Of a stretch of DNA of 64,000 bases, positions 2,423 through 32,635 are shown one piece after another. A program made the translations under genes and the position numbers. The stretch comes from Spartobacteria bacterium (GTDB lineage: Bacteria; Verrucomicrobiota; Verrucomicrobiia; Chthoniobacterales; UBA6821): the NCBI GenBank assembly GCA_947487385.1, contig CANKWU010000007.1, positions 7,894 to 71,893 of the forward strand, written 5' to 3'. Positions within the stretch are counted from its first letter, which is position 1; every line of letters starts with the position of its first letter. Under the pieces are notes generated by a model. It made no database searches, had not been told where the DNA came from, and saw only the letters and a list, made by a program, of their open reading frames with translations.

Positions 2423-2437
2423 TTTGCACCAACCACC

Positions 2438-2878
2438 GTGAATTTCCGCACGCGCTTACAGCCGGAGCCACGGGGATTCCTGATCGCCCCGATGGTCGAT
2501 ATCCTTCTCGTGCTGCTAGGGTTCTTCATGCTCACGTGGAGCTTTGCCAGGCAGGAACGGGAACTCGACGTCCAGATGCCCTCGGCCGGCGAGGCCAAGG
2601 AGCAGAGGCGCTCCGTCGGAGAGGTGATTATCAACGTCAAGGCCGATGGTAGCCTTGTCATGAATCGTCGGAGCATGACCGCGGATGAGCTTTTGGCGGC
2701 GCTTTCACGAATTGCCGCACTCTATCCGGACCAGGCCGTGGTGCTACGCGGCGACCAGCGCGTCGACTATGGACACATCATTAAGACACTCGATCTCTGC
2801 CGGAAGGCCAATATCTGGAACATCGCCTTCGCCACGGCCAGTCCCGAAGTTTCAATGACTCCCCCCTCCCGTCTATGA
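2438..2878 (+). CDS. ExbD/TolR biopolymer transport protein
   Basis: GTG start. The single N-terminal TM (LIAPMVDILLVLLGFFM) and periplasmic domain (VVLRGDQRVDYGHIIKTLDLCRKA) follow the ExbD pattern. Confidence 0.8.
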   Translation: MNFRTRLQPEPRGFLIAPMVDILLVLLGFFMLTWSFARQERELDVQMPSAGEAKEQRRSVGEVIINVKADGSLVMNRRSMTADELLAALSRIAALYPDQAVVLRGDQRVDYGHIIKTLDLCRKANIWNIAFATASPEVSMTPPSRL

Positions 2879-11591: not shown

Positions 11592-11978
11592 GTGAAAGAG
11601 CCGCGATGGATCGAACGCGAGGTCTGCCTCGCGCTTCACGATATGCTTCTTTCCCAATACGGAGGATGCGCTGGACTTCGCGAATCAGGATTGCTGGATT
11701 CGGCCCTCGCCCGACCGCTCCAGCTTCTTTCCTACGGATCGCCTTCGCTCGCCGAGTTAGCAGCCTCCTACGCAGCTGGAATCATCAAAAATCATCCCTT
11801 CCTCGACGGGAACAAGCGGACAGGTTTTATGCTCGGAGCCGGTTTTCTTGAGCTCAACGGCATGGAGTTCGTGGCCTCGGAGGCCGATGCCGTGATCAAA
11901 ACCCTTGCACTAGCAGCAGGAGAGATGACCGAAGGAGCTTATGCAGTGTGGATCGAGCAGAACTGCCGTAAAGCCTAG
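11592..11978 (+). CDS. doc: Doc (death-on-curing) Fic-family toxin
   Basis: HPFLDGNKRTGF matches the Doc variant of the Fic motif HxFx(D/N)(A/G)NKR. GTG start 8 nt after the antitoxin stop. Confidence 0.85.
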   Translation: MKEPRWIEREVCLALHDMLLSQYGGCAGLRESGLLDSALARPLQLLSYGSPSLAELAASYAAGIIKNHPFLDGNKRTGFMLGAGFLELNGMEFVASEADAVIKTLALAAGEMTEGAYAVWIEQNCRKA

Positions 11979-19201: not shown

Positions 19202-20485
19202 TTAAAGAGTGGGCACCATTACGCGGATCAGCACGTTTGCGATCCCGCCGAGCAGGATAAGCGGAACAATGCTCACTTTCTTGGAGTGCAGCAAAAAGAA
19301 GGCGATCAGGGCTAGCAGTAGGGGAAGTGCTGAGGGTCGGCCTGAAGGCAGAAAGAGGGCCTCTGAAAACCAGAGGGCAAGGCAGGTCATCACAGACGTC
19401 ACCACAGCTCCTATTGCGGCAAGCCCGCCAGCCATGCGGGGATTCCGAGCAATCCCATCCAGATGGGGGGCCAGCGAAAAAATCCAAAGAAAGCTAGGCA
19501 GGAAAAGAGACCAGATGGCTGACAGGCTTCCCAATGTCGCGGAAAGTAGAGGTGACAGAATTCCCGGGGCCTTGTAGCAGCCCAGGAAAGCCACGAATTG
19601 CAGGGCGATCAGCAAAGGGCCAGGAGTTGTCTCGGCAAGACCTAGCCCGTCCATCATCTCCCCGGAGGAAAGCCATCCCCAGTCACCCGAGGCATGCAGT
19701 GAGACATAGGAGAGGGCCGCGTAGGCACCGCCGAAACTCAGCACCGCAACCTTGCCAAAGAAAAGTCCTACCTGAAACGGCATCGCCATGAACCCAAGCC
19801 AAAAGAACAGAGCCAGCATTGGAACCAGCCAAATTGCTAGAATGCTCAGGGCCATGCTTAGAGACGATAGGCAAGATCTCATCTGACTTCCCGACCTCGG
19901 TGGGGATTTCTCGGAGGACTCTTCCGGCGTCGAAGTTTTTTTCAGTAATAACCCCCCGATCAAACCGAATCCCAACACCACAACGGGATAGGGAATATGT
20001 GACAGAAAGAGACCAAAGGAAATCATGGCAATCAGTGCAAGCGGCCAACTGGTTATGGTCCGACGTGCGATCCTGAACAATGCAGAGGCAACGATCGCCA
20101 CCACAGCAGGCTTCAAGCCGTCAAAAAAGGAATGCATCAACGGCCAGTCGCGACCTGTCACATAGAGCAGACTTAGCACCCAGAGGAGTAGGACCGCAGG
20201 CAGAAGAAAGAGCACCCCGGCAGCGATTCCTCCCCGGATCCCGTGGAGACGCCACCCGAGATAGATGGCGAGTTGTTGGGCCTCCGGACCAGGCAGAAGC
20301 ATGCAAAATTGAAGAGCCCTCAGGAACTCGACTTCGTTGATCCATCCTCTTTTATCGACTACCTCGGCCTGGAGGATCGCGATCTGACCCGATGGCCCAC
20401 CGAAGCCGATACAGCCGATCTTTAACCAGAGACACACGGCCTCACCTAAGGTTGGCTTGGCTGGAGAGAGGTGGGCAACACCCAT
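19202..20485 (-). CDS. chrA: Chromate ion transporter (CHR family, two-domain)
   Basis: FGGPSGQIAILQAEVVDKRGWI in the first half and SFGGAYAALSYV in the second half mark the duplicated CHR domains. Confidence 0.8.
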   Translation of the reverse strand: MGVAHLSPAKPTLGEAVCLWLKIGCIGFGGPSGQIAILQAEVVDKRGWINEVEFLRALQFCMLLPGPEAQQLAIYLGWRLHGIRGGIAAGVLFLLPAVLLLWVLSLLYVTGRDWPLMHSFFDGLKPAVVAIVASALFRIARRTITSWPLALIAMISFGLFLSHIPYPVVVLGFGLIGGLLLKKTSTPEESSEKSPPRSGSQMRSCLSSLSMALSILAIWLVPMLALFFWLGFMAMPFQVGLFFGKVAVLSFGGAYAALSYVSLHASGDWGWLSSGEMMDGLGLAETTPGPLLIALQFVAFLGCYKAPGILSPLLSATLGSLSAIWSLFLPSFLWIFSLAPHLDGIARNPRMAGGLAAIGAVVTSVMTCLALWFSEALFLPSGRPSALPLLLALIAFFLLHSKKVSIVPLILLGGIANVLIRVMVPTL

Positions 20486-20507
20486 AACGGCTTGCTTTCG
20501 ACCCGTC

Positions 20508-23000
20508 TTATCCTTGGTTAAACAGCGGCAACTCTGCCGTCGGGTCGGGGGCTCCCTGCATCTTACGACGTGTTCCGGCCAGGGTTGGACGTCCCTCGGC
20601 GTTAAGTTCCGTTTTTTCCAGATTTGTCAGGATCTCCCACGCCCGTTCAATCACCGCGGGGGGAAGTCCCGCCAGACGAGCCACCTGGATGCCGTAGCTC
20701 CGGTCGGCTGCCCCTTGGATGATTTTTCTGAGAAAAATGATCCGGTCGTTCTGCTCCCGAACAGCAACATTCAGATTCCGAACGCCAGAACGTGTACGGG
20801 CAAGATCGGGGAGTTCATGGTAGTGGGTCGCAAAGAAGGTGCGGCATCCGGTGATATCATGCAGATACTCCGCGACGCTCCAGGCGATCGAAAGTCCATC
20901 GAAAGTCGCGGTGCCGCGTCCGATCTCATCCAGCAGGACAAGACTCCGGGAAGTGCCGTTGTGGAGAATATTCGCCGTCTCGTTCATCTCGACCATGAAT
21001 GTCGAATGTCCCCTCGAGAGATCGTCACTAGCTCCAACCCGGGTGAAGATCCGATCAGTCACACCGATCCGGGCCGACTTAGCGGGAATCCAACTTCCCA
21101 TCTGGGCCATAACGGTGAGAAGGCCGACCTGCCGAAGGTAGGTCGATTTACCGGCCATGTTCGGTCCGGTAATGATGCCCATGCGATGGTTGGCCGCATC
21201 GAGATCGGTGTCATTCGGCACAAAGGACTCTCCGCCGGCACGCTGATCGAGCACAGGATGACGCCCCTCGTGAATCTCGAGCATCATGGAATCATCCACC
21301 ACGGGACGGGCATAGCCAAAGAGTCGAGCCGTCTCTGCCAACGAGCAAAGGGTGTCGAGCGCACCTGCCGATGCTGCCGTTTCCTGCAGAGGTCTCACCT
21401 GATCCAGGACGGCGGAGCGGAGGCGTTGGAAAATTTCAATCTCGAGCGCTTTTGCCCTTTCCTCGGAACCGAGGATCCTACCCTCCATCTCCTTCAGCTC
21501 CGGGGTGATGAACCGTTCCCCTCCGGCTGTTGTCTGCTTGCGGGTGTAGTCGCCGGGAACGCTCCCAAGATTCGCCGTGGTGATCTCGATGAAATAGCCG
21601 AAGACAGCATTGAAACGGACTTTCAACGACTTGATCCCGGTGCGCTCAATCTCCGTTTCCTGCAACGCGGCAATCCAGCCCTTTCCCTCGGTGGAAGCAT
21701 TCCGGAGTTCATCCAGAGCAGCATCGAATCCAGCACGGATAATTCCTCCCTCGCGGATTGTGGGAGGAGGTTCATCGACAAGTGCGGATTGAAGAAGAAC
21801 GGTAAGTTCCGGAAGCAGATGGAGATGCTCCCCGAGTTCTCCTAGGAGGCTCCCTCCACACGAGGCAAGCGTTTCTCTAAGGGAAGGCAATGATCCCAAA
21901 GAAGAAGACAGAGTGGCAAGGTCGCGGGCATTGCCGGAATTCTGACTAAGTCGGGAGATGGAGCGCTCGATGTCACGGATTCCGCCGAGTTGATCGCGCA
22001 GATCGCCCAGCTTAATCTCTGAGGAGATCAGAAAACCTATGGCATCCTGCCGTCCGGTGATCGCGGCAGGATCAATTAACGGGCGCAGAACCCAGTCACG
22101 CAAGGTGCGGGCTCCCATCGGTGTAACGGTCTTGTCGAGCGCCCCGAGAAGGGTCATCCCCCGTCCGGCCCTCGAAGAGACAAGTTCCAGATGTCCCTGA
22201 GTGGAGGCATCCAGCAGAAGATGCTCGGCCTGCCGATAGCCCCTGAGGGAACGGAGATGCCCAGCATCGCGGCGAAGCGTGCGGGTCAAGTAATGGAGGA
22301 GAGCGCCGGCGGCGGTGATTCCAGACGGAATGTCATTCACGCCGAAGCCGTCCAAGGAGTGAACTTTGAAATGGGAAAGCAGTATCTCCTTCGAGGCCAT
22401 CGGATCGAAGAGATAGGTCTCCACCTCCTCGGGCTCAGCGAAACCAAGGGGCAACTCTTTCAATAAATTCTTACTCCCCTCGGGAACAAGAATCTCAGCG
22501 GGAGACATGCGCACCACCTCGTCTAAGACCGCCTCGGCGGAAGAGAGCTCCGTAATGTGGAACTCGCCTGTACTCAGGTCCGCACAGGCAAGGCCGAAGA
22601 GACCCCCTTCCTTGGCCGGGGGAAGAATTGCTGCGGTGAAATTATGACTTTTCTCCTCGAGTCCTGCATCTTCCAGGGTGCCTGGGCTGAGAATGCGGGT
22701 GATCTCACGTCGAACAAGTTTTCCTGGCTGGACCTCTCCCACTTGCTCGCAGAAAGCGACACGGCGACCGGCAGCAAGCAGCTTCTCCATGTAGCCGCGT
22801 GCCGCATGATAGGGGACGCCGCACATCGGCACGTCGCCGCGCTTCGTGAGTGCCACATTCAGGATCGCCGAGGCCTCCTTGGCATCGTCGAAGAACATCT
22901 CATAAAAATCACCGAGACGAAAAAGCAGGAACGTCCCCGGCGGTAGGTCGCGCCGCAGGGCGTGATACTGCTTCATCATCGGCGTTCCCTCGGCGGCCAT
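20508..23000 (-). CDS. mutS: DNA mismatch repair protein MutS
   Basis: TPMMKQYHALR at the N-terminus, Walker A GPNMAGKSTYLRQ, and STFMVEM. Confidence 0.95.
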   Translation of the reverse strand: MAAEGTPMMKQYHALRRDLPPGTFLLFRLGDFYEMFFDDAKEASAILNVALTKRGDVPMCGVPYHAARGYMEKLLAAGRRVAFCEQVGEVQPGKLVRREITRILSPGTLEDAGLEEKSHNFTAAILPPAKEGGLFGLACADLSTGEFHITELSSAEAVLDEVVRMSPAEILVPEGSKNLLKELPLGFAEPEEVETYLFDPMASKEILLSHFKVHSLDGFGVNDIPSGITAAGALLHYLTRTLRRDAGHLRSLRGYRQAEHLLLDASTQGHLELVSSRAGRGMTLLGALDKTVTPMGARTLRDWVLRPLIDPAAITGRQDAIGFLISSEIKLGDLRDQLGGIRDIERSISRLSQNSGNARDLATLSSSLGSLPSLRETLASCGGSLLGELGEHLHLLPELTVLLQSALVDEPPPTIREGGIIRAGFDAALDELRNASTEGKGWIAALQETEIERTGIKSLKVRFNAVFGYFIEITTANLGSVPGDYTRKQTTAGGERFITPELKEMEGRILGSEERAKALEIEIFQRLRSAVLDQVRPLQETAASAGALDTLCSLAETARLFGYARPVVDDSMMLEIHEGRHPVLDQRAGGESFVPNDTDLDAANHRMGIITGPNMAGKSTYLRQVGLLTVMAQMGSWIPAKSARIGVTDRIFTRVGASDDLSRGHSTFMVEMNETANILHNGTSRSLVLLDEIGRGTATFDGLSIAWSVAEYLHDITGCRTFFATHYHELPDLARTRSGVRNLNVAVREQNDRIIFLRKIIQGAADRSYGIQVARLAGLPPAVIERAWEILTNLEKTELNAEGRPTLAGTRRKMQGAPDPTAELPLFNQG

Positions 23001-23068: not shown

Positions 23069-23857
23069 CTAGGAATTGAGGAAAGCTGTCAGAGGACTGG
23101 TCGCAATGGCATGCTCGGCGGCCATGGGCAATCCGGCAGCCACCGCTTCAGCGGCCCCCTCGACAGCCATCCGGAAAGCACGGGCCATGCGGACTGGATC
23201 ACCTGCGACGGCAATCGCGGTATTAACCAGTACGGCATCGGCCCCTAACTCCAAGGCCTCGGCTGCATGGCTAGGCGCTCCGATTCCCGCATCGACGATG
23301 ACAGGCACCGTCGCCTGCTCGATGATGATGGAGATTTGATGACGAGTCTCGAGGCCCCGGTTGCTCCCGATCGGTGAACCAAGCGGCATGACCGTCGCGG
23401 CTCCCGCTTCCTGCAGGCGCTTGGCCAGAACAGGGTCAGCATTGATGTAAGGAAGAACAGTGAACCCTTCAGCCACCAGCATCTCTGTCGCTTTCAGTGT
23501 CTCAATGGGATCTGGAAGCAGGTAGCGGGGGTCGGGATGGATCTCTAGCTTTACCCACTTCGGCAGACCTGCGGACGCGGAGAGGTGTGCCAGACGAAGA
23601 GCCTCCTCTGCCGTATTGGCGCCACTAGTGTTGGGAAGGAGGAGGTATTTCTCAGGGTCAATGAACTCCAGGATATTGGCAAAGGGATCTCCCTTCCCGG
23701 AGAGATCGGCACGGCGGAGCGCCACAGTAACGACCTGGGTGCCACTCGCGGCCAACGCCTCACTCATGACGGAGGCAGAGGAAAACTTTCCAGTTCCCAG
23801 AAAAAGGCGCGAGGAAAACTCACGCCCGGCAATGATCAGTGGCGATGCTGCAGACAT
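23069..23857 (-). CDS. thiG: Thiazole synthase
   Basis: [37 protein letters not shown] and VIVDAGIG are canonical ThiG motifs. Confidence 0.9.
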
Positions 23858-24126
23858 TTCCCCTATGCTATTGGTGAAGTGGCAACCCGTGCAAGAAACC
23901 CCGACAGTGGGAGTTTTAAATATGGTATTGCTTGCGTGCTAAAGCGTCAGGAACTCAAAAAGGGAATCTAGGCAACCGCTGAATCAATCTTAGCGAGGCG
24001 CGCTGCTTGGAATTCTGAAACTAAGGCAAGGTGATTGGGAGGGAGCGTGTGAAAATCTACCCCAACTCCTCTCCTCTCGCCAGCAGTGCACTTTTTGGAC
24101 AGCCTCTTACGGATCAACTTACCCCG

Positions 24127-26244
24127 ATGATATCCCTCAGAAAGTCTTTGGTTCCGCGATCCATCGGACAGCGTTTTGCATTGGCCATCGGGACCGGGGC
24201 CTCTGGCATCCTGATCGCACTAGCATTAGTGAATTTCATTAACGGGAGTGAGTTGCTCTTGAATCAAGCCTCACAAGAGGCGATCAGGCAGGTCCATAAT
24301 GAGATTGGCAACTGGGACGACCAAATCGAACGGATCGGAATGCTTCCGAGGGTCATCGGAGCAATCGAGGTAGATAGTCAAAGCCAGGTAACAATCCCCT
24401 TGCTGGCAACCCTGCTAAAACGTACCACCGGCAACAGCGTCTTCGGCCTTTACATGTATCGTGAGGATTTAGACTGGCATGATCCCAAGTCGTACAGCTG
24501 GGTTAACCTCAAGAGTTGGCCCAATGCCGCATCCCCTACATACCTTGCTTACGACTTTCATGATCCTACGCAAGATTGGTATCGGGGAGCGAAGGAGGGC
24601 AAAGGACTGCACGTTACTCTCCCCTATTTTGCTGCGGGCGGCTCAGAAATCAACATGATCAGCATCACTAAGGCTGTACGCGATCCCTCCGGAAAATTCA
24701 TTGGAGTGGCAGGAGCCGATGTTTCCATGGAAGAAATGGAAAAGATGATCCGGGAGATGGATCTCCGTGATTTTGGGACAAATCGTTTTGTTAAAAACGA
24801 TGATCCCAAGAGTGCTAACTCAACAAGGATGGAGAAATATCCCGTCCAATCCTCCTACCTGATCTCAAAAACAGGCGCAGTGATCATCGGTCCCGGAATC
24901 GAAACAGAAAAGAGGGCTCGCAAACCGGGGTATCAGCATCCTGAAGAAAGCATGGAAACCCTTGCTGACCATGGCCTGCAACTCGCCCCTGAACATCTCT
25001 CGCAGATTCTCTCCACAGAGACCGGTTGGCTGCGTGTCGAACAAAATGGAGACAAGCTGATTTGTTGGGCTCAAAGCAAGATTACCGGATGGAAACTTAT
25101 TCGATCGGTTCCCTACAGCATGATCATTGCGCCAGCCAGTCACTTGGCATCGGAATCTCTTGTGATTGGAGGGGTCGGGCTTTTTGTGCTGATCGGTGTC
25201 GTGTTCTTCACTGCTCGCAGGATCTCGGAACCGATCACATCACTCCAGTCCGTCGCCACAAACTTTGAGCGCGGTTCCTATGATAAAGGGAGAGATGTAC
25301 TCAGCCGGATCGAAAAACGCCCCGACGAGCTGGGTCGGTTTGCCAAGAGCTTCTCCGCCATGGCGCAGGAAATCCACCTGAGGGAAGAGAGACTCTCGGA
25401 GTGGAACACCAACCTGGAAGTGACGGTGAAAGAACGAACTTCCGATCTGGCTGCCGCCATGTCCAAAGTCGAGAAAGTGAATGCCGCCATGGAGGCTGAA
25501 CTTGCAGAGGCAGCAGCTTACTCCCGTGCCGTACTGCCTGGGAAACTGACCACGCCCGTCACCACCGACTGGGTATTCATCTCTTCTTCGCAGCTCGGTG
25601 GGGATTCCTTCGGTTATCACTGGATCGACGACGACACCTTCTCCCTTTATCTGCTCGATGTCTGCGGTCACGGCGTGGGGGCGGCCTTGCTCTCCACTAG
25701 CGTGGTGAATGTCCTCCGCTCCTCCTCCCTTGCTGACACAAACTTCCTAGATCCTGCAAATGTTCTTGCTCAACTGAATGCCGCTTTCCCGATGGAGCGG
25801 CATAACGACATGTATTTTACTGCCTGGTATGGAGTCTACACCCTCTCCAACGGCACCCTGCGCTTCGCCTGCGGCGGACACCCTCCCGCCGTGCTCGTTG
25901 CGCCGGATGGAACGATCTCCAATTTGACTGCCAAGGGCACCGTCGTAGGGGCCTTCCCCAATCCCACCTACGAAACGGCTTCGACTGAAGTAACGCCGGG
26001 CTCCAGACTCTATCTTTTCAGTGACGGAACCTATGAAATCGATCGCCCCGACTCCACAATGATGACCCATCAGGAGTTTTCCGAAATCCTCAAAGCTCCC
26101 GTCACAACAGGAACTTCCAAACTGGAAACTGTTGTCATGGAGGTGCGGAAACAGCAGCAAAAGGAGGCCTTCGCGGATGATTTCTCATTGGTGGAGTTTC
26201 TCTTCCCCGATCACAACATCCCTCCCACGGCCTCCTCGGAGTGA
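24127..26244 (+). CDS. Membrane sensor: periplasmic Cache-like domain + HAMP + PP2C/SpoIIE serine phosphatase (RsbU-like), kinase domain lost
   Basis: Two TMs flank an extracytoplasmic domain of about 300 aa. An HAMP/coiled coil follows (RPDELGRFAKSFSAMAQEI), then a SpoIIE-type phosphatase (GGDSFGYHW...LLDVCGHGVGAALLS...LYLFSDG). The start is taken at ATG 24127 by alignment with the paralog. Confidence 0.8.
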   Translation: MISLRKSLVPRSIGQRFALAIGTGASGILIALALVNFINGSELLLNQASQEAIRQVHNEIGNWDDQIERIGMLPRVIGAIEVDSQSQVTIPLLATLLKRTTGNSVFGLYMYREDLDWHDPKSYSWVNLKSWPNAASPTYLAYDFHDPTQDWYRGAKEGKGLHVTLPYFAAGGSEINMISITKAVRDPSGKFIGVAGADVSMEEMEKMIREMDLRDFGTNRFVKNDDPKSANSTRMEKYPVQSSYLISKTGAVIIGPGIETEKRARKPGYQHPEESMETLADHGLQLAPEHLSQILSTETGWLRVEQNGDKLICWAQSKITGWKLIRSVPYSMIIAPASHLASESLVIGGVGLFVLIGVVFFTARRISEPITSLQSVATNFERGSYDKGRDVLSRIEKRPDELGRFAKSFSAMAQEIHLREERLSEWNTNLEVTVKERTSDLAAAMSKVEKVNAAMEAELAEAAAYSRAVLPGKLTTPVTTDWVFISSSQLGGDSFGYHWIDDDTFSLYLLDVCGHGVGAALLSTSVVNVLRSSSLADTNFLDPANVLAQLNAAFPMERHNDMYFTAWYGVYTLSNGTLRFACGGHPPAVLVAPDGTISNLTAKGTVVGAFPNPTYETASTEVTPGSRLYLFSDGTYEIDRPDSTMMTHQEFSEILKAPVTTGTSKLETVVMEVRKQQQKEAFADDFSLVEFLFPDHNIPPTASSE
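25480..25849 (+). repeat. Near-identical 370-bp block shared with 28236..28605 (gene-conversion tract)
   Basis: By manual alignment at constant offset 2756 there are 4 mismatches in 370 bp. The flanking homologous sequence is clearly more diverged. Confidence 0.85.
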
Positions 26245-26270
26245 ATGCCTAACTAAGAAAGCGTTAACTC

Positions 26271-26385
26271 ATCGAATCTCTCCGCGAGAGGAACCAAATG
26301 CCATCCGCTTCAGCGACCGTGGCAATGCGTTCAACCTGCTTGATCGGGACGCAGTCGAGGCAGACAAACCCGATCGAGCGATTTC
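26271..26385 (+). pseudogene. Fossil of an RsbW-like HATPase_c kinase domain (out of frame, after the stop of the upstream gene)
   Basis: The segment is alignable to 29169..29273 of the paralog. It translates in another frame to AIRFSDRGNAFNLLDRDAVEADKP, against ITIRFSDHGNPFNPLDRDEVDTDKP in the intact copy. Confidence 0.8.
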
Positions 26386-26736
26386 CTAGGCCACTGAGGA
26401 GCCGATCGCAACGAGTGCCTCGTCCCGCGTAGCGCAGACGGGATACGCGGTCTCAAACTGAGCGATATCGAAAATTCTTTTCACAGAAGGCTGGAGGGCA
26501 CAAACGGCCAAACCCCCACCGACCCGCTGCAACTGCCTCCCAAGCAGGAAGAACTCGCGAAAACCAGCACTACTCACGTACTCAAGACCAGCTAGGTCGA
26601 ACACAACACCTTTAGAGCCACATGACTCGATCTCCTTAGCCACGGAGTCCTTGATCATGTTCTGCTCGGTTGCATCAAGACGCCCTTTGAGTACTACGAC
26701 AAGGATGGGACCGGCTTTTTCGAATTGCAAATCCAT
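26386..26736 (-). CDS. STAS-domain anti-sigma-factor antagonist (RsbV/SpoIIAA-like)
   Basis: 116 aa. VVVLKGRLDA...VVFDLAGLEYVSSAGFREF places the phosphorylatable Ser in the D-x-x-x-x-x-x-S-S-x-G context. Confidence 0.85.
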   Translation of the reverse strand: MDLQFEKAGPILVVVLKGRLDATEQNMIKDSVAKEIESCGSKGVVFDLAGLEYVSSAGFREFFLLGRQLQRVGGGLAVCALQPSVKRIFDIAQFETAYPVCATRDEALVAIGSSVA

Positions 26737-26867
26737 AATTCAGATTAACTCAAAACGCTCCGAGGTCAAGTACTGCTCTCTCAATGTGTCGCAAGCAGAG
26801 GCAAACAGCGCCTGAGCATCCGCTTGGCATTGACCCATGGATAAACTATCACTTGCCTAAGAAGCAA

Positions 26868-29411
26868 ATGTCCATGCTCTCTCTGAAACATTATCTAACA
26901 CCCCGATCAATCGGGCAGCAGTTCGCCCTCACCATCGGAGCCGGAGCAGGTGTGATCCTGATCGTCTTGGCAGTAGCCAACTACATCAGTGGCAGGGAGC
27001 TGCTTCTCCAGCAAACTTCACAGGAGGCACTCCGGGCGGTAAATGACGAGATCAACACGATGGATGATCTCGTCGAGAAGATGGCGATGTATCCCGAGGT
27101 CATCGCCGCCACAGAACTCTCCGGCACGAATAACGAGGGAGTTAAGGTTCCATGGCTCTCCTCTCTGCTCGTGCACTCGCCGATGCCTGCCATCTACGGG
27201 GTCTACATGGCCAGAGATTCCAAGCACTGGCAGGATCCCGATTCCGACCCGTGGGTTGACCGCAAGAGCTGCCCAAATCCGGCACACCTGAAGTACGACT
27301 TCCATGATGAGAGTCAGGACTGGTACATCGGGGCAAAGGAGGACAAAAGACTCCATGTGACTCAGCCTTATTTTGATGCGGGAGGCTCAGACATCGACAT
27401 GATCAGCATTACCAAGCCCGTTTACTCAGACGAAGGAACCTTCGTTGGGGTGGCAGGCGTCGATGTGGCTCTGGACGAAATGCGAAAAATCGTCCGGAAA
27501 ATTAACATTAGGGATTATGAAACGGATCTGACTCAGGGCGATGGGGGCGGCAAGGTCACCCTCTCTCCGAAGAGTCAGACCGTGGGTGTGCAGGAACCGC
27601 ATGAAACGGCCTATCTGGTCTCCCAAAGTGGCGCGATCATCGTCAGTCCCGAGACATCGCAGGAAAAACCTGCTTCGAAATCTGGCGAACAGGATCCGAC
27701 CAAGGCCCTGGAAGACCTGCTCAGCAACGGACTGGTCACCAGCGTTCCCGGCATCCAGAAGATTCTGGCCTCGGACAGCGGATGGCAGCGCCTCAAGGAT
27801 GGAAGTAACAAGGTGATTTACTGGGCCAAGGGCAGGACCACCGGATGGAAACTGGTGCTGGAAGTGCCTTACGAACTCATCGTGGCTCCGGCCAGAAAAT
27901 TAGCAGAACAGTCGGCGATCATCGGTGGGGCGGGGCTTTTTGTGCTGATCGGTGTCGTGTTCTTCACATCCCGCAGGGTTTCGGAGCCCATTACCGAGCT
28001 TCAGACCGTGGCTACCTCGTTTGAGAAAGGAAGCTATGACGGCGGGGCGGGGATTCTGGAACGGATCGAAAAACGCCCCGACGAGCTGGGTCGGTTTGCC
28101 AAGAGCTTCTCCGCCATGGCGCAGGAAATCCGCCTGAGGGAAGAGCGTCTCTCGGAATGGAATGCCAATCTCGAACAGACAGTCAAGGACCGCACCGCCG
28201 ACCTCGCCGCAGCCATGGAGAAGGTCAAGACGGTCAATGCCGCCATGGAGGCGGAACTTGCAGAGGCAGCAGCTTACTCCCGTGCCGTACTGCCTGGGAA
28301 ACTGACCACGCCCGTCACCACCGACTGGGTATTCATCTCTTCTTCGCAGCTCGGTGGTGATTCCTTCGGTTATCACTGGATCGACGACGACACCTTCTCC
28401 CTTTATCTGCTCGATGTCTGCGGTCACGGCGTGGGGGCTGCCTTGCTCTCCACTAGCGTGGTGAATGTCCTCCGCTCCTCCTCCCTTGCTGACACAAACT
28501 TCCTAGATCCTGCAAATGTTCTTGCTCAACTGAATGCCGCTTTCCCGATGGAGCGGCATAACAACATGTATTTTACTGCCTGGTATGGAGTCTACACCCT
28601 CTCCACCGGCATCCTACGCTTTGCCAGCGGTGGTCACCCTCCCGCCGTATTGATCGCTCCAGACGGAAACGTGCTTCATCTCTCAGCCAAGGGCGCGGTC
28701 GTGGGAGCCTTCCCCAAGCCCATCTACGAAACGGCTTTGACTCAAGTTGTGCCGGGCTCCAGACTCTATCTTTTCAGTGACGGAACCTATGAAATCGATC
28801 GCCCCGACTCCACAATGATGACGCACGAGGAATTCTCCATTATCCTCAAGGATCCTGTTGCAACAGGAACCCGTAAACTGGAATCTGTCGTCATGGAGGT
28901 GCGACAACAGCAGCAAAAGGAAGCCTTCGCTGATGATTTCTCATTGGTGGAGTTTCTCTTCCCCGATAACCAGCCTGCGTCCCATGGGGTCCTCCGATTG
29001 AAGGCCGAACTTAGCGAACTGACACGACTCCACCCGTTTCTCACCTCCTACTGCGAGAAAGAAGGTACCCCTACGGAGCAGATCTTCGACTTCGAGGTCA
29101 TCCTCGAGGAACTCGTCACCAATGTCATCAAATACGGTTGTGTTCAGGCCGGGAAGGAATGCTGCCTCATCGAACTTCTCCGCGAGGGAAACCAAATCAC
29201 CATCCGCTTCAGCGACCATGGCAATCCGTTCAACCCACTTGATCGGGACGAAGTCGACACAGACAAACCGATTGAGGAACGCGAGATCGGAGGCCTCGGC
29301 ATCCACTTCATCAAGAATCTCACCGACTCACAGAGCTACGAATACAAGGATGGAATGAACATCCTCACTCTCAACGTAACATTCACTACTTTAGCTAATG
29401 TTGATGCCTGA
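26868..29411 (+). CDS. Membrane sensor: Cache-like + HAMP + PP2C/SpoIIE phosphatase fused to C-terminal RsbW-like serine kinase (HATPase_c)
   Basis: Architecture matches 24127..26244. It adds a C-terminal domain of about 140 aa with an N-box EELVTNVIKYG, DHGNPFNP and GGLGIHFIKNL. Confidence 0.8.
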   Translation: MSMLSLKHYLTPRSIGQQFALTIGAGAGVILIVLAVANYISGRELLLQQTSQEALRAVNDEINTMDDLVEKMAMYPEVIAATELSGTNNEGVKVPWLSSLLVHSPMPAIYGVYMARDSKHWQDPDSDPWVDRKSCPNPAHLKYDFHDESQDWYIGAKEDKRLHVTQPYFDAGGSDIDMISITKPVYSDEGTFVGVAGVDVALDEMRKIVRKINIRDYETDLTQGDGGGKVTLSPKSQTVGVQEPHETAYLVSQSGAIIVSPETSQEKPASKSGEQDPTKALEDLLSNGLVTSVPGIQKILASDSGWQRLKDGSNKVIYWAKGRTTGWKLVLEVPYELIVAPARKLAEQSAIIGGAGLFVLIGVVFFTSRRVSEPITELQTVATSFEKGSYDGGAGILERIEKRPDELGRFAKSFSAMAQEIRLREERLSEWNANLEQTVKDRTADLAAAMEKVKTVNAAMEAELAEAAAYSRAVLPGKLTTPVTTDWVFISSSQLGGDSFGYHWIDDDTFSLYLLDVCGHGVGAALLSTSVVNVLRSSSLADTNFLDPANVLAQLNAAFPMERHNNMYFTAWYGVYTLSTGILRFASGGHPPAVLIAPDGNVLHLSAKGAVVGAFPKPIYETALTQVVPGSRLYLFSDGTYEIDRPDSTMMTHEEFSIILKDPVATGTRKLESVVMEVRQQQQKEAFADDFSLVEFLFPDNQPASHGVLRLKAELSELTRLHPFLTSYCEKEGTPTEQIFDFEVILEELVTNVIKYGCVQAGKECCLIELLREGNQITIRFSDHGNPFNPLDRDEVDTDKPIEEREIGGLGIHFIKNLTDSQSYEYKDGMNILTLNVTFTTLANVDA
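28236..28605 (+). repeat. Partner of the 25480..25849 near-identical block
   Basis: See 25480..25849. Confidence 0.85.
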
Positions 29412-29657
29412 TCGCTCGAGAGGAGAGCGAAGCGAGGCTTTAGTGGTTCCCTGGTAGAGCTTGATCCCACTTCCTCGGTCTCACAAATCCAATGAACTTC
29501 CTCACCCAGTTGCGAAAAAGTCATACTTCCCCGCAACGATGCTGCGGGAGAACGGGCCTTGTGAAATCTTCCCCACCTCTCATCCCACATCGCATCGGAT
29601 ATGGGAGAACTCTGTGGAACCTTGGAAATCAACGAGTTATCACTCATCTTTTAAAAT

Positions 29658-29698
29658 AACACATGTGTTCCATTAGTGCAATATAATGACATGTCATT
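29658..29698. promoter_or_regulatory. Two perfect palindromes with a shared ACATGT core flanking a TATAAT hexamer
   Basis: AACACATGTGTT lies at 29658-29669, TATAAT at 29682-29687 and AATGACATGTCATT at 29685-29698. This is 23 nt upstream of the first gene of the AT-rich block. Confidence 0.35.
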
Positions 29699-29720
29699 CT
29701 AAAATACGTTCGCTTCAAAA

Positions 29721-30131
29721 ATGATCCTTCGATACACGGCAGTATCTATCTTCGCGACCTGCTTGGTTACTGGCTGCGATGAGTCCGTGCCACTGAATTA
29801 CTCCACTCGCGCTGATGCCAATGCCGAGAGCCTTTTCGCACGAGGATGGCTACCTGAGATTATTCCGCCATCGAGTCGCAACATTTCCATGCGCAACGAA
29901 CTCGACCTGAATATCTCGAACGGTGAGTTCAGTTTCGAGCAGTCGGATCATGACGCATTCGTGACCCAGCTTGAGAGAGAGTCATCACGGGACGAGGGTG
30001 GGTCTCTCGCCTATGTCTATCACGAATGGACCTTCTGGATCAATGGCGACAAGAACCACTGCCGATTTCACATGCGCCTCACCCGGAACAAAAAACAAAG
30101 CGAACAAGACGGCACATCCAACGGCGGGTAA
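29721..30131 (+). CDS. Small lipoprotein, unknown function
   Basis: The signal peptide plus lipobox is AVSIFATCLVTGC. No family recognised. Confidence 0.6.
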   Translation: MILRYTAVSIFATCLVTGCDESVPLNYSTRADANAESLFARGWLPEIIPPSSRNISMRNELDLNISNGEFSFEQSDHDAFVTQLERESSRDEGGSLAYVYHEWTFWINGDKNHCRFHMRLTRNKKQSEQDGTSNGG

Positions 30132-30165
30132 CCTCCTTCTTTGAATTCGGGCTTCACTCTCCTCC

Positions 30166-30888
30166 GTGGATGGCCTAGACGTTCGGCTGAAAAATCTTCC
30201 TATGCCCCTAACTCAATCCTATTCGCGCGTTAAAGACGGTGTCGTGCAAGTCCTCGCCCTGAACGGCTCAACGCTTGTATCCTTCGGATCAGGTTCGGTT
30301 ATCGACGATGGATGCAAGGTTCTGACCTGTGAGCATTGCGTGATTGCTGGCACGCAGGCAGCTATCGCAGACCCAAGGAACCCAGGACGAGCACTTTTCG
30401 GTAATGCGATCTTTGTGGACAAGGCCAACGATATCGCCGTGCTAGAATTTCCAAATCCTGTCGGCACGGCTGTCGAACTCGTGAATAGCTCGAAATGTCA
30501 GATTGGGAATGGTGCCTTTGTAGTTGGATTCCCAATGGGGGTGAACGAACAAACGCTCTTTTCTGCTCACATTGCTAGCATCACTGGAAGTCACCTCCGT
30601 ATTGATGCGTCAGTGAACCACGGCAACAGCGGTGGGCCGCTTTTTGACCTCGATGGCAGGCAGATCGGCATCGTGAACGCGAAACATGGCTCACTTTCGC
30701 AGTTTCTTACACAGGTGAAGGATGCCAAGCCTGGTGCGATGATGAGTATTGGAGGGATTGATCCAGTGAAAACAATTCAAGTGCTGATACAAGAAATGCA
30801 GAAGAATCTGAATTTGGGTATTGGTTACGCAGTTCCGACCGAGAAGATAAAACCACTTCACGCCATCCTCACAAAGTGTGTTAAATAA
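30166..30888 (+). CDS. Trypsin-like (S1/S1C) serine protease without PDZ domain
   Basis: The triad context is LTCEHCV (His), NDIAVLEF (Asp) and NHGNSGGPLF (Ser). The start may be GTG 30166 or ATG 30187. Confidence 0.75.
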   Translation: MDGLDVRLKNLPMPLTQSYSRVKDGVVQVLALNGSTLVSFGSGSVIDDGCKVLTCEHCVIAGTQAAIADPRNPGRALFGNAIFVDKANDIAVLEFPNPVGTAVELVNSSKCQIGNGAFVVGFPMGVNEQTLFSAHIASITGSHLRIDASVNHGNSGGPLFDLDGRQIGIVNAKHGSLSQFLTQVKDAKPGAMMSIGGIDPVKTIQVLIQEMQKNLNLGIGYAVPTEKIKPLHAILTKCVK

Positions 30889-30892
30889 ACTC

Positions 30893-30951
30893 GCCGAACA
30901 AGTCGGTGGAGGCAACCGGCATTCGCCGGTGCCTCACCTCTGCCGTTAGCC
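30893..30951 (+). repeat. attC-like element A (59 bp)
   Basis: GCCGAAC-aagtc-GGTG(G)AGGC-a-ACCGGC-attc-GCCGGT-GCCTCACC-tctgcc-GTTAGCC. The outer boxes resemble RYYYAAC / GTTRRRY with one mismatch each. The spacers are 5 and 6 nt, the left arm has a bulged G, and no T-run follows. Confidence 0.55.
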
Positions 30952-30963
30952 TAAAACCTACAC

Positions 30964-31596
30964 ATGATGCCATCGCTTAGCGTAGCAATTTCACTTATCG
31001 CACTAGGCGTGTCGGTAATTACGGCTTGGCTTACATTTTTTCGTCGAGGTAGGCTTGTAATGACGCAGCCGACGCTGGTGTTTTTCGGGCCAGACGGACC
31101 TCAGTTCATCGGAAAAAATAAAATATACCTTCGAACACTAATATATTGCACGGCTAAGCGTGGAATTGTAATTGAGAGCCTTCACGTGACAGTGCAGAGA
31201 AACGAGTCGAAACAGAACTTCAATATATGGGTATATGGAGACAATGGAGATCTGAAGAGAGGAAGCGGTATTTTCGTCCCACAGGAGGGAATTACATTCG
31301 ACCACCATTTTCTACAACCAGCAGACGGCTCTAACTTTAAATTTAAAGCAGGTGCATACAGACTGACGGTTTTAGCCAAGCTCGTAGGTGAAGAAACTCC
31401 TAAAGAGCTGATGACGATAAAGCTCTCAATAAGTGAGTCGCAAGAACTTGCGCTTTCAAGCCCGCAAACAGCTATCTTTTTCGACTGGGGACCTGATCAG
31501 CAAAACTATCATCCTCATATTCGAAACGGCATGGATATCGATTCGGATATGAAGAAACTCATAGAATCATTTGATAAAATAAAAGGAAAAGGCTAA
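30964..31596 (+). CDS. Hypothetical single-pass membrane protein
   Basis: N-terminal TM (SLSVAISLIALGVSVITAWLTFF) followed by a soluble domain that looks beta-rich. No family recognised. Confidence 0.55.
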   Translation: MMPSLSVAISLIALGVSVITAWLTFFRRGRLVMTQPTLVFFGPDGPQFIGKNKIYLRTLIYCTAKRGIVIESLHVTVQRNESKQNFNIWVYGDNGDLKRGSGIFVPQEGITFDHHFLQPADGSNFKFKAGAYRLTVLAKLVGEETPKELMTIKLSISESQELALSSPQTAIFFDWGPDQQNYHPHIRNGMDIDSDMKKLIESFDKIKGKG

Positions 31597-31648
31597 CCAA
31601 GCGATGCAGCGAACGCCCTTCGGTCGTCGCTGATCTTGCACGTTAAAT
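31591..31648 (+). repeat. attC-like element B (58 bp)
   Basis: GGCTAAC-caagc-GAT(G)CAGCGA-acgcccttcggtcg-TCGCTGATC-ttgcac-GTTAAAT. The right box is a perfect GTTRRRY. The stop codon TAA of the upstream gene lies inside the left box. Spacer and bulge geometry match element A. Confidence 0.55.
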
Positions 31649-31665
31649 AACTCCAAGCTTTTCCT

Positions 31666-32163
31666 GTGCTAATTAGCCCATTGGCAGATGTTCCAGCGGC
31701 CATTCCTACGATGGCAAAATGGTTCTATGATGAATGGCACACCTTTGATGGTCGTTCCATCGATCAGATCACTGCCCAACTTTCAGATAATCTCAACCGC
31801 CATTCACTCCCTATCACCTTTGTGGCACATGAGAATCTTGAGATCATGGGGACTGTTTCCCTCGATATTTCGGATCTTCCGGAATTTGACTGCTATTCTC
31901 CTTGGCTCTCATCGCTCTATGTCCATGAGGGCCATCGAGGCAAAGGCGTTGCCTCTACTCTTGTCAGTCATCTCAAGCATTTTGCATGCTCAGGTGGAGT
32001 CACTCCCTTATACCTCTGGACTCCTGGCTCTACATCCCTCTACGAGCGATTAGGATGGTTTGAGATTTCAAGAAGATCTTACCGATATAAGGATATCACT
32101 ATCATGAGTTATGCCGGTTTGCATGGGTGTTCTGTACATAGTGTCGCTCAGCTCCTACGTTGA
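31666..32163 (+). CDS. GNAT-family N-acetyltransferase
   Basis: The acetyl-CoA motif A is HEGHRGKGVASTLV. The start may be GTG 31666 or ATG 31711. Confidence 0.75.
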   Translation: MLISPLADVPAAIPTMAKWFYDEWHTFDGRSIDQITAQLSDNLNRHSLPITFVAHENLEIMGTVSLDISDLPEFDCYSPWLSSLYVHEGHRGKGVASTLVSHLKHFACSGGVTPLYLWTPGSTSLYERLGWFEISRRSYRYKDITIMSYAGLHGCSVHSVAQLLR

Positions 32164-32169
32164 GGAAAA

Positions 32170-32583
32170 ATGAATATTCATTACGAAACTAATCGTGCGA
32201 TTTCTGAGCATGAATTTATCGACCTGCTTCGTCGCTCGACGTTAGCCGAACGTCGCCCCATTGATGACGCAAACTGCGTGAAAGCGATGCTTCATCATGC
32301 AAATTTGCTCTGTACTGCGTGGGACGGTACGGCGTTGGTTGGTGTAGCCCGCTCTGTTACCGATTTTGAGTATTGCTGTTACTTATCTGATTTGGCGGTT
32401 GACCAAGACTATCAGAAGAAGGGGATTGGTCGTGCGTTGATCCGACTGACACAGTCAAAGCTAGGGAAGCGAGCGAAGTTGATTCTCCTGGCGGCACCGA
32501 AGGCCGAAGCTTATTACCCTCAGATTGGGTTCGAGGCGCACCGATCCGCATGGCTTATCCCCGCTATCCAAGAACTAAAATAA
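32170..32583 (+). CDS. GNAT-family N-acetyltransferase
   Basis: Motif A is DQDYQKKGIGRALI. A GAGG sits 8 nt upstream of the ATG, and the gene is only 6 nt from the previous GNAT stop. Confidence 0.8.
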   Translation: MNIHYETNRAISEHEFIDLLRRSTLAERRPIDDANCVKAMLHHANLLCTAWDGTALVGVARSVTDFEYCCYLSDLAVDQDYQKKGIGRALIRLTQSKLGKRAKLILLAAPKAEAYYPQIGFEAHRSAWLIPAIQELK

Positions 32584-32593
32584 AAATCACGAA

Positions 32594-32635
32594 GCCAAAC
32601 CAGGCGTTAAAACATAACGCCCACGGACGTTAGCC
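32594..32635 (+). repeat. attC-like element C (short/degenerate)
   Basis: GCCAAAC-ca-GGCGTTA-aaaca-TAACGCC-cacggac-GTTAGCC. The right box is identical to that of element A, but the spacers are asymmetric (2 and 7 nt) and the length is only 42 bp. Confidence 0.3.

What the first reader, a model, noticed from the sequence alone, without database searches (positions are those of the whole stretch)
24127..29411. Partner-switching locus built from two tandem Cache-HAMP-PP2C sensor paralogs flanking a STAS gene, one fused to its own RsbW-like kinase
The gene order is sensor-phosphatase (+), STAS antagonist (-), sensor-phosphatase-kinase (+). The second protein (about 850 aa) places an extracytoplasmic Cache-like sensor, HAMP, a SpoIIE/PP2C phosphatase and a C-terminal HATPase_c serine kinase (EELVTNVIKYG, DHGNPFNP, GGLGIHF) on one polypeptide. 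Opposing activities toward the neighbouring STAS protein (Ser in LEYVSSAGF) are thus joined in a single membrane sensor. No sigma or anti-sigma target is encoded nearby, so the output of the switch is unknown. The periplasmic domains of the two paralogs are much more diverged than the cytoplasmic parts, which suggests two different ligands feeding one STAS node.
Basis: partly seen in the sequence, partly recalled or inferred. Interest (0 to 1): 0.6.

Follow-up and report, generated by a model that had tools for sequence, protein, structure and literature searches.

The report
Two-sensor STAS phospho-switch, one kinase-fused
A freshwater Verrucomicrobiota genome carries a small signalling switch in which two membrane sensors, one also carrying the opposing kinase, most likely set the phosphorylation of one small STAS protein; all the parts belong to known families, but the locus is being reshuffled unusually fast.

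Summary
Gene A (24127-26244, +) is dCache-HAMP-PP2C. The STAS gene lies at 26386-26736 (-). Gene B (26874-29411, +) is dCache-HAMP-PP2C plus an RsbW-type kinase. All catalytic motifs are present, and STAS Ser56 aligns with the SpoIIAA phospho-serine. No sigma or anti-sigma gene was found in the 64 kb window or within 10 kb in relatives.

The fusion is not new in kind. The best solved-structure match is the fused RsbU-RsbW part of M. tuberculosis Rv1364c, and SypE of Vibrio fischeri is another dual kinase/phosphatase acting on a STAS protein. More than 80 protein clusters from Chthoniobacterales share B's architecture.

New points:
- A is a decayed fusion with a kinase pseudogene remnant at 26268-26378.
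- A 350-bp A-to-B gene conversion keeps the PP2C cores near-identical.
- A close relative deleted A and left a scar.
- Two old ectodomain types (44% identical) replace each other at this locus in genomes that are otherwise 99-100% identical.

"Two different ligands" is unproven, because the putative pocket motif is the best conserved ectodomain segment. The output is unknown. My verdict is a new variant of a known kind, of moderate-low interest.

The parts
24127..26244 (+). Gene A (705 aa), a membrane sensor phosphatase. TM1 aa 17-35, double-Cache ectodomain about aa 40-343, TM2 aa 344-363, HAMP about aa 361-417, helical linker, PP2C/SpoIIE aa 501-689. It has no kinase domain.
   Evidence: Pfam, TM segments and motifs, homologues P0063, P0078 and P0075. 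The ratio of synonymous to non-synonymous differences against strain L090 indicates purifying selection.
24550..24657 (+). Putative ligand-pocket motifs of A's membrane-distal Cache module: YDFHDPTQDWY ... PYFAAGGSEINM. A has D->A, D->E and D->N changes relative to the family consensus PYFDxGGSDIDM.
   Evidence: Alignment to the Mlp24 ligand-binding domain, family alignment, coordinates.
25497..25850 (+). Gene-conversion tract in A. It is 98.6% identical to B 28253-28606 and covers the end of the linker and the first half of the PP2C domain.
   Evidence: Four-fold-site divergence is 0-0.09 here against 0.67-0.73 in flanking HAMP pieces.
26268..26378 (+). Kinase pseudogene remnant after A's stop. 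It is 87% identical in DNA to B 29166-29276 (G1-box region, 'IRFSDRGNAF..DRD'). It is out of frame with A. The N box is lost in a deletion of about 150 bp, and the G2 box and C-terminus are lost at the STAS stop codon.
   Evidence: blastn E 1e-33. The remnant is closest to the resident B. It evolves faster than the flanking genes between strains: 93.5% against about 98.5%.
26386..26736 (-). Single-domain STAS protein (116 aa) of the anti-sigma-factor antagonist type. The predicted phospho-acceptor is Ser56 (codon 26569-26571).
   Evidence: Pfam STAS 5e-16. NCBIfam TIGR00377 scores 63.4, above its cut-off of 53.45. Alignment to SpoIIAA 1TH8/1TID.
26737..26873 (.). Divergent intergenic region between STAS and B, presumed to hold both promoters. 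It is swapped together with the sensor gene in the L003/L006 allelic replacement.
   Evidence: The consensus promoter scan was uninformative.
26874..29411 (+). Gene B (845 aa; 847 aa if the start is 26868), a membrane sensor with both phosphatase and kinase. TM1 aa 17-35, double-Cache ectodomain, TM2 aa 347-366, HAMP, long helical linker about aa 405-472, PP2C about aa 483-696, RsbW-type GHKL serine kinase about aa 704-837.
   Evidence: Pfam, AlphaFold2 model, Foldseek, more than 80 homologous clusters, invariant motifs.
28253..28606 (+). Gene-conversion tract in B, the recipient copy. B here is only 85% identical to B of relative L004, against 92-98% elsewhere, yet 98.6% identical to A.
29001..29372 (+). 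HATPase_c_2 (RsbW/SpoIIAB-type) kinase domain of B. N box 29106-29138, G1 29214-29231, G2 29289-29309.
   Evidence: Pfam 4e-19. The best NCBIfam matches are RsbW and SpoIIAB models, all below equivalog cut-offs.

Best explanation
The locus is a self-contained partner-switching-type phospho-switch with no sigma gene, in a Chthoniobacterales ('Spartobacteria') bacterium.

B is a membrane receptor, probably a dimer. A periplasmic double-Cache domain signals through TM2, HAMP and a long helical linker to a PP2C phosphatase. An RsbW-type serine kinase follows directly on the same chain. The kinase phosphorylates Ser56 of the STAS protein encoded divergently next door, and the PP2C domains remove that phosphate. 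Ligand occupancy therefore sets the fraction of unphosphorylated STAS.

A has lost its own kinase. It adds a second, differently built ectodomain that can only push STAS towards the unphosphorylated state, so B supplies the only kinase. I take unphosphorylated STAS to be the diffusible output. It would act on a target encoded elsewhere, as SypA does in Vibrio fischeri, rather than free a locally encoded sigma factor.

Shown here: the domain composition, the catalytic and acceptor residues, the conservation and synteny, and the evolutionary history of the two copies.

Inferred: who phosphorylates whom, the sign of ligand control, dimerisation, and the output.
For: - All three partner-switching components are present with significant scores. 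STAS passes the NCBIfam anti-sigma-antagonist cut-off, and the kinase matches RsbW and SpoIIAB models best.
- The PP2C motifs GGD, DVCGHG, SDG and DD and the kinase N, G1 and G2 boxes are invariant in 25 homologues of 53-93% identity. The PP2C motifs are also intact in A.
- STAS Ser56 aligns with the SpoIIAA phospho-serine.
- The AlphaFold2 model gives the topology TM, PDC1, PDC2, TM, HAMP, long helix, PP2C, kinase.
- The best structural match is the fused RsbU-RsbW part of Rv1364c, E 6e-19 over 377 columns. The ectodomain matches double-Cache ligand-binding domains at target-normalised TM-scores of about 0.7.
- In Rv1364c the kinase domain phosphorylates the STAS domain and the phosphatase domain dephosphorylates it (review PMC9138534). 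SypE does the same to SypA, with SypA as the downstream output (PMC10120452).
- The STAS(-)/sensor(+) pair is syntenic next to thiG-mutS in every close relative examined, and none has a sigma gene within 10 kb.
- STAS is more conserved than its sensors: 93% against 84% in L001, and 78% against 52-63% in L008. The same STAS (99% DNA identity) serves either sensor type in L003 and L006.
- A is under purifying selection, with 20 synonymous and 12 non-synonymous codon differences against strain L090, similar to B's 23 and 15.
- The linker-dimer control model for PPM phosphatases, which includes HAMP-linked ones, comes from PMC12143880.
Against: - There is no biochemical evidence for any step.
- No target has been identified, so 'STAS is the output' rests on analogy and on the absence of a nearby sigma gene.
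- Sigma genes are also unlinked in Chlamydia, where RsbW is nevertheless reported to bind sigma-66.
- The HAMP Pfam scores are just below the curated cut-off.
- The model is of moderate quality, with mean pLDDT 73.5 and pTM 0.38.
- A close relative (L004) has deleted A, so A is dispensable.
Confidence: 0.55

Rival explanations
1. Classical anti-sigma switch. The kinase domain of B is a membrane-tethered anti-sigma factor that sequesters a sigma factor encoded elsewhere in the genome. Unphosphorylated STAS displaces it, as in RsbU-RsbV-RsbW-SigB or the chlamydial Rsb system.
For: The kinase domain matches RsbW and SpoIIAB models best and STAS is of the anti-sigma-antagonist type. Rv1364c, the closest structure, is reported to regulate SigF. 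In Chlamydia, also in the PVC group, RsbW is proposed to hold sigma-66 although the genes are unlinked.
Against: No sigma gene lies in the 64 kb window or within 10 kb in any syntenic relative. The kinase is fused to a membrane protein. In several partner-switching systems the STAS protein or a non-sigma protein is the output.
Confidence: 0.25
2. A is a decaying duplicate on its way to loss. Only the STAS-B pair is functional, and the 'two-input' design is incidental.
For: A lost its kinase through a frameshift, a nonsense change, a deletion of about 150 bp and a 3' truncation. The close relative L004 deleted A altogether and left only 77 bp of it. A carries three substitutions in the otherwise conserved PYFDxGGSDIDM pocket motif. 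Most relatives have a single sensor.
Against: The 705-codon ORF is intact with all PP2C catalytic motifs. Substitutions between two strains are biased towards synonymous changes, as in B, while the kinase remnant next to it diverges faster. A was the donor in a recent conversion of B. Kinase-less sensor-PP2C genes are the normal state in the 'type 2' form of the locus.
Confidence: 0.15
3. The fused kinase is an RsbT-like cis-regulator. It activates or gates the adjacent PP2C domain and phosphorylates an RsbS-like STAS inhibitor. The real phosphatase substrate is then another protein.
For: RsbT is a paralogue of RsbW in the same HATPase_c_2 family. It binds RsbU and phosphorylates STAS proteins (background and the abstracts listed). 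Physical fusion to a PP2C domain would suit a regulator.
Against: Only one STAS gene and no other candidate substrate are linked to the locus. The best family matches are RsbW and SpoIIAB. In the solved analogue Rv1364c, kinase and phosphatase act on the same STAS domain.
Confidence: 0.08

Closest known systems
Mycobacterium tuberculosis Rv1364c (PAS-PP2C-RsbW kinase-STAS; PDB 3KE6)
   Same: A PP2C phosphatase is followed directly by an RsbW-type kinase on one chain. It is the top Foldseek hit, spanning both domains. Its kinase and phosphatase act on one STAS serine.
   Different: The input is a cytoplasmic PAS domain, not a periplasmic double-Cache domain plus HAMP. STAS is fused at the C-terminus rather than encoded by a separate divergent gene. 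The protein is soluble. Sequence identity is only about 17%.
Vibrio fischeri SypE / SypA
   Same: One protein carries both a serine kinase and a PP2C phosphatase acting on a small STAS protein, phosphorylated at Ser56. No sigma factor is involved, and STAS is the downstream output with an unknown target.
   Different: The domain order is kinase-REC-PP2C and the input is a receiver domain. It lies in a biofilm polysaccharide locus. The 'type 2' relatives of this locus carry REC-PP2C-kinase, in yet another order.
Chlamydia trachomatis RsbU-RsbV1/V2-RsbW
   Same: The organism is also in the PVC group. The phosphatase is a transmembrane protein with a periplasmic ligand-binding domain. The genes are not linked to a sigma gene, and the target has been debated. 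PP2C domains of environmental Chlamydiales are about 47-50% identical to B's.
   Different: RsbW is a separate protein. Those chlamydial PP2C matches examined here are REC-PP2C proteins, not Cache-HAMP-PP2C. I found no sequence match to a solved chlamydial RsbU ectodomain.
Bacillus subtilis RsbU/RsbV/RsbW and SpoIIE/SpoIIAA/SpoIIAB
   Same: The same three protein families and the same acceptor serine.
   Different: There are three separate proteins with a co-encoded sigma factor, and no extracytoplasmic Cache input.
Pseudomonas aeruginosa SiaABCD
   Same: SiaA is a membrane HAMP-PP2C phosphatase. It is the best NCBIfam match for A and B and its PP2C structure 6K4E is a good fold match. The kinase/phosphatase pair controls a non-sigma output.
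   Different: The score is far below the SiaA equivalog cut-off (65 against 700). From my own knowledge, not tested here: the kinase SiaB is a separate protein, the substrate SiaC is not a canonical STAS protein, and a diguanylate cyclase gene is linked. No diguanylate cyclase gene is linked to this locus.
Double-Cache (dCache_1) ligand-binding domains of chemoreceptors and histidine kinases (Mlp24, PctA, mmHK1S-Z2/Z3)
   Same: The fold and the YD..(R/Q).WY / PY.D motifs of the membrane-distal module match. The same ectodomain family sits on hybrid histidine kinases in related bacteria (P0110-P0120 and L033).
   Different: The arginine of the 'R-P-W' element, which binds the carboxylate in amino-acid sensors (my knowledge of that motif), is glutamine here in both A and B. 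The ligand is probably not an amino acid.

Membership tests
Partner-switching module (RsbU/RsbV/RsbW type) | PPM/PP2C (SpoIIE family) phosphatase with metal-binding aspartate motifs | tested here: met
   PF07228 scores 4e-39 for A and 3e-37 for B. GGD, DVCGHG, SDG and DD are invariant in 25 homologues and present in A.
Partner-switching module (RsbU/RsbV/RsbW type) | GHKL serine kinase of the RsbW/SpoIIAB type with N, G1 and G2 boxes | tested here: met
   PF13581 scores 4e-19. The best NCBIfam matches are RsbW and SpoIIAB models, below equivalog cut-offs. E746/E747, N751, D782 and G807-G810 are invariant (numbering +1 relative to the 845-aa protein).
Partner-switching module (RsbU/RsbV/RsbW type) | Single-domain STAS protein with the conserved phosphorylatable serine | tested here: met
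   PF01740 scores 5e-16 and TIGR00377 is above its cut-off. Ser56 aligns with the serine of SpoIIAA that is alanine in 1TID.
Partner-switching module (RsbU/RsbV/RsbW type) | A target (a sigma factor or another protein) that is bound and released by partner exchange | tested here: inconclusive
   No sigma or anti-sigma gene and no further STAS or kinase gene was found in the window or within 10 kb in relatives. The rest of the genome could not be searched.
Partner-switching module (RsbU/RsbV/RsbW type) | Demonstrated phosphorylation and dephosphorylation of STAS by the linked kinase and phosphatase | not testable with these tools
   This needs in vitro assays.
Rv1364c-type multidomain regulator | PP2C domain immediately followed by an RsbW-type kinase domain on one chain | tested here: met
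   Foldseek top hit 3KE6, E 6e-19, 377 aligned columns. The linker between the two Pfam domains is about 17 residues.
Rv1364c-type multidomain regulator | N-terminal PAS sensor and C-terminal fused STAS domain | tested here: not met
   The N-terminus is TM, double-Cache, TM, HAMP. STAS is a separate gene on the opposite strand.
SypE-type dual kinase/phosphatase response regulator | Kinase-REC-PP2C domain order with a receiver domain as input | tested here: not met
   Neither A nor B has a REC domain. The REC-PP2C-kinase proteins of 'type 2' relatives have a different order.
SiaA (NCBIfam NF038263) | Score above the equivalog cut-off | tested here: not met
   65 bits against a cut-off of 700.
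dCache_1 extracytoplasmic sensor | Two tandem PDC (alpha/beta) modules between two TM helices, with family-level sequence or fold similarity | tested here: met
   MCP-like_PDC_1 is above its cut-off (48 and 55.8 bits against 27), while dCache_1 is below its own (36 against 45). The model shows two alpha/beta modules between TM helices. Target-normalised TM-scores to Mlp24, mmHK1S-Z2, PctA and PscC are 0.66-0.77.
Amino-acid-sensing dCache (conserved Y..R.W..Y..D motif; from my own knowledge) | Arginine in the 'R-x-W' element that binds the ligand carboxylate | tested here: not met
   Mlp24 'RKRPWY' aligns with 'ESQDWY' in B and 'PTQDWY' in A.

The most novel reading that the evidence does not exclude
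The ectodomain exists as two ancient allelic types, alpha (A-like) and beta (B-like), only 44% identical. They replace each other at this one locus in genomes that are otherwise 99-100% identical, and this genome carries both. Gene conversion keeps the linker and PP2C dimer-interface region of A and B essentially identical. A and B could therefore form heterodimers, giving a combinatorial two-input receptor feeding one STAS protein. The alpha/beta dimorphism would then be a balanced polymorphism in what the cells sense, comparable to specificity groups in other signalling systems.
Probability: 0.12. Interest if true: 0.65.

Novelty: new variant of a known kind. Interest (0 to 1): 0.35.

Why it matters
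Partner-switching modules are common outside Firmicutes, but their inputs and outputs are mostly unknown. This family pairs a defined extracytoplasmic input with a STAS protein. Its one-sensor form has only two genes, one sensor carrying both opposing enzymes and one STAS protein, which makes it a compact system for two questions: how a Cache/HAMP signal biases a kinase/phosphatase pair, and what a STAS protein does when no sigma factor is linked to it.

The locus also shows unusually clear modular evolution of a sensor. Within one species-level lineage there is fusion and fission of the kinase, allelic replacement of the ectodomain, stacking of both alleles, gene conversion and deletion.

It does not overturn any current idea. 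Fused RsbU-RsbW proteins (Rv1364c) and dual kinase/phosphatases acting on STAS proteins (SypE) are already known.

Tried and rejected
- **A as a recent in-situ duplicate of B.** Rejected for the 5' half. A's ectodomain is 44% identical to B's but 73-78% identical to sensors P0078, P0075 and P0086 of other genomes. Its 3' end and kinase remnant are B-like, so A is a chimera.
- **The single-sensor relative L004 as the ancestral state.** Rejected. L004 keeps the first 77 bp of A and then jumps to the STAS stop codon.
- **PP2C-kinase fusions as widespread among the 80 genome loci.** Many 'PP2C+KIN' loci turned out to be REC-PP2C genes with a separate kinase gene. In the representative search only about 9 of the top 150 clusters span both domains.
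- **A TPP riboswitch or other RNA in the thiG-A spacer.** Rfam and ARAGORN found only tRNA-Val at 61564-61638.
- **Promoter and terminator consensus scan of 23700-29800.** Uninformative. It found one promoter-like site, fewer than the shuffled expectation.
- **Papers.** Greenstein 2009, Morris and Visick 2013 and Soules 2020 are not held in the library. I used reviews and later papers that cite them. A literature search for this kind of system in Verrucomicrobia found nothing.
- **A failed computation.** The first full-family MAFFT run timed out and was repeated with faster settings. A first fixed-offset comparison with L004 was wrong because of an indel and was redone on an alignment.
Full report
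**1. What is in the sequence**

- A: 24127-26244 (+), 705 aa.
- STAS: 26386-26736 (-), 116 aa.
- B: ends at 29411 (+). In-frame ATGs lie at 26868 and 26874. Homologues begin at the residue that corresponds to 26874, giving 845 aa.

Pfam gives these domains.
- A: SpoIIE/PP2C 4e-39, MCP-like_PDC_1 2e-12, dCache_1 5e-9 (below cut-off) and HAMP (just below cut-off).
- STAS: PF01740 5e-16.
- B: SpoIIE 3e-37, HATPase_c_2 4e-19 at aa 711-834, and MCP-like_PDC_1 7e-15.

Each sensor has two hydrophobic segments, aa 17-35 and about aa 345-365, bracketing the ectodomain.

An AlphaFold2 model of B, built on 25 homologues, has mean pLDDT 73.5. Its order is TM helix, two alpha/beta modules, TM helix, HAMP, a helix of about 70 residues, PP2C, kinase.

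**2. Are the parts competent?**

I aligned 25 fused homologues of 53-93% identity.
- The PP2C motifs GGD, (L)DVCGHG, SDG and DD are invariant.
- The kinase N box (EE..N..KYG), G1 (D.G..F) and G2 (GGLG) are invariant.
- A retains all four PP2C motifs.

STAS aligns end to end with SpoIIAA. Ser56 falls on the serine that is alanine in the 1TID variant, which is the phospho-acceptor. STAS also passes the NCBIfam 'anti-sigma factor antagonist' cut-off. The kinase domain matches RsbW and SpoIIAB models best, below their equivalog cut-offs.

**3. Surroundings**

The window holds one STAS gene, two PP2C domains, one kinase domain and one kinase remnant, and nothing else of these families (tblastn). 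Pfam scans of the other ORFs found no sigma or anti-sigma domain. The precomputed annotation of the identical contig L005 agrees. A few ORFs had no Pfam match.

**4. Organism and family**

Homologues come from Chthoniobacterales / 'Spartobacteria' / Verrucomicrobiota MAGs. More than 80 clusters at 90% identity share B's architecture. JGI already names them 'serine phosphatase RsbU / anti-sigma regulatory factor'.

The pair STAS(-)/sensor(+) always sits next to thiG-mutS. Three forms of the locus occur among close relatives.
- **Type 1:** STAS plus the fused sensor (L001, L002, L004, L010, L011).
- **Type 2:** STAS plus Cache-HAMP-PP2C plus a separate, translationally coupled REC-PP2C-kinase gene (L003, L006-L009, L012-L014).
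- **A-STAS-B:** seen only in this genome (L005 is identical to it) and in a 98-99% identical strain (L090).

**5. A is a decayed, chimeric fusion gene**

Directly after A's stop, nt 26268-26378 are 87% identical to B 29166-29276, the G1-box region (E 1e-33). Relative to B, A carries these lesions:
- a 1-nt deletion just before its stop;
- a nonsense change in the B-equivalent frame;
- a deletion of about 150 bp that removes the N box;
- a truncation at the STAS stop codon.

The remnant is closest to the resident B, then to B of L004 (84%), then to L001 (78%).

A's ectodomain belongs to another lineage, which I call alpha. It is 44% identical to B's (beta) but 73-78% identical to the type-2 sensors P0078, P0075 and P0086.

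Between this genome and L090, A shows 20 synonymous and 12 non-synonymous codon differences and B shows 23 and 15. The kinase remnant region is only 93.5% identical, against about 98.5% for the genes. A is therefore a constrained gene, and the remnant is drifting.

**6. Gene conversion**

Four-fold-site divergence between A and B is 0.67-0.73 in parts of the HAMP region. It falls to 0.00-0.09 over nt 25474-25833.

In the tract 25497-25850, which matches B 28253-28606, A and B are 98.6% identical. B of this genome is only 85% identical to B of L004 in that tract, against 92-98% elsewhere. So A overwrote B. This happened after the split from L004 and before the split from L090, where the A-B identity in the tract is 97%.

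**7. Loss and allelic replacement**

L004 is about 93% identical to this genome and has one sensor. It retains the thiG-A spacer and the first 77 bp of A, then jumps to the STAS stop codon. This is the scar of a 2.18 kb deletion.

L003 and L006 are 99-100% identical across more than 8 kb of flanking DNA. From the STAS start codon to about 185 nt before the sensor's stop they are only 50-67% identical over the ectodomain and 73-88% over HAMP-PP2C. L003 carries a beta ectodomain and L006 an alpha one.

The two ectodomain types thus behave as alleles at one locus. Both occur on fused and on unfused proteins, and the same STAS protein serves both.

**8. Ligand question**

The ectodomain matches double-Cache ligand-binding domains by fold (Mlp24, mmHK1S-Z2/3, PctA, PscC; target-normalised TM-scores 0.66-0.77). 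It also matches them by sequence in the membrane-distal module.

The segment YDFHD..QDWY.GAK..HVT.PYFD.GGSDIDMISITK is conserved across the alpha, beta and more distant members. Divergence between A and B is greatest in the N-terminal helix (33-36%) and in the membrane-proximal module and loops (21-43%).

The arginine of the 'RPW' element of amino-acid sensors is glutamine in both A and B. A and its strain variant P0063 alone have PYFAAGGSEINM and a three-residue insertion.

'Two ligands' is therefore possible for A against B, but the alpha/beta split as such does not indicate it.

**9. Comparison with known systems**

The best solved-structure match is 3KE6, the fused RsbU and RsbW domains of Rv1364c (E 6e-19). 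In Rv1364c the kinase domain phosphorylates, and the phosphatase domain dephosphorylates, the STAS domain of the same protein.

SypE of V. fischeri is a kinase-REC-PP2C protein. It sets the phosphorylation of the STAS protein SypA at Ser56. SypA is the downstream output, and its target is unknown.

Chlamydial RsbU is a transmembrane PP2C with a periplasmic ligand-binding domain and a separate RsbW.

I searched 1.84 billion cluster representatives with B's PP2C-plus-kinase region. Only about nine of the best 150 span both domains. Those examined have REC, GAF or dCache-HAMP N-termini, or none recognised by Pfam. The fusion therefore recurs, but it is a minority state in this PP2C clade.

**10. 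Mechanism and verdict**

The best-supported reading is a ligand-controlled kinase/phosphatase pair acting on STAS Ser56.
- B supplies the only kinase.
- A supplies a second, phosphatase-only input.
- Unphosphorylated STAS acts as the output on an unlinked target.

The domain facts and the evolutionary history are shown here. The enzymology, the sign of ligand control and the output are inferred.

The system is a new architectural variant of a known kind, not a new principle. Its main added interest is the rapid modular turnover of the sensor. Interest 0.35.

Noticed in passing
window 29412-32600: The genes downstream of B are a YbbD_head-like gene, a trypsin-like protease, an unknown gene and two GNAT acetyltransferases. 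GC falls to 0.48 at 30-32 kb, against 0.53-0.58 around it. This stretch is replaced by different genes in relatives (Macro and YoeB/Phd in L001, exonuclease VII in L004, aldo-keto reductase in L003). It looks like a variable island bordering the locus.
   Followed up: partly
L003 9851-11927 versus L006 8744-10796: Two metagenome contigs are 99-100% identical in flanking DNA but carry sensor alleles only 50-67% identical over the ectodomain. The STAS-sensor intergenic region is included in the divergent block. This is a clear allelic replacement within one species.
   Followed up: yes
L004 8776-8857: A close relative with a single sensor keeps the first 77 bp of gene A fused to the 3' end of STAS. 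This is the scar of a 2.18 kb deletion.
   Followed up: yes
L003 12109-13962, L006 10978-12831, L008 12079-13947: In 'type 2' relatives the sensor-PP2C gene is followed by a REC-PP2C-HATPase_c_2 protein of about 617-622 aa. In L003 and L006 the two genes overlap by 4 nt. That locus form also has two phosphatases and one kinase for one STAS protein.
   Followed up: partly
L033 2334-4337; proteins P0110-P0120: The same Cache-HAMP sensor family (YDYHD..QEWY motif) is attached to hybrid histidine kinases in other bacteria. The input module is therefore shared between PP2C and histidine-kinase outputs.
   Followed up: no
window 11592-11978: A 128-aa Fic/DOC family ORF (Pfam 5e-17), possibly a toxin of a toxin-antitoxin pair. 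I did not examine the gene upstream of it.
   Followed up: no
window 1622-7522: A cluster of ExbB-like, ExbD-like, a 929-aa TPR protein, an unknown gene and an HtrA-like trypsin-PDZ protease, all on the + strand and tightly packed.
   Followed up: no
window 20457-21845 (+): A 462-aa ORF lies antisense to mutS (20508-23000, -). It is almost certainly a spurious shadow ORF.
   Followed up: no
window 61564-61638: tRNA-Val (CAC) is the only RNA gene that Rfam and ARAGORN detect in the window.
   Followed up: yes
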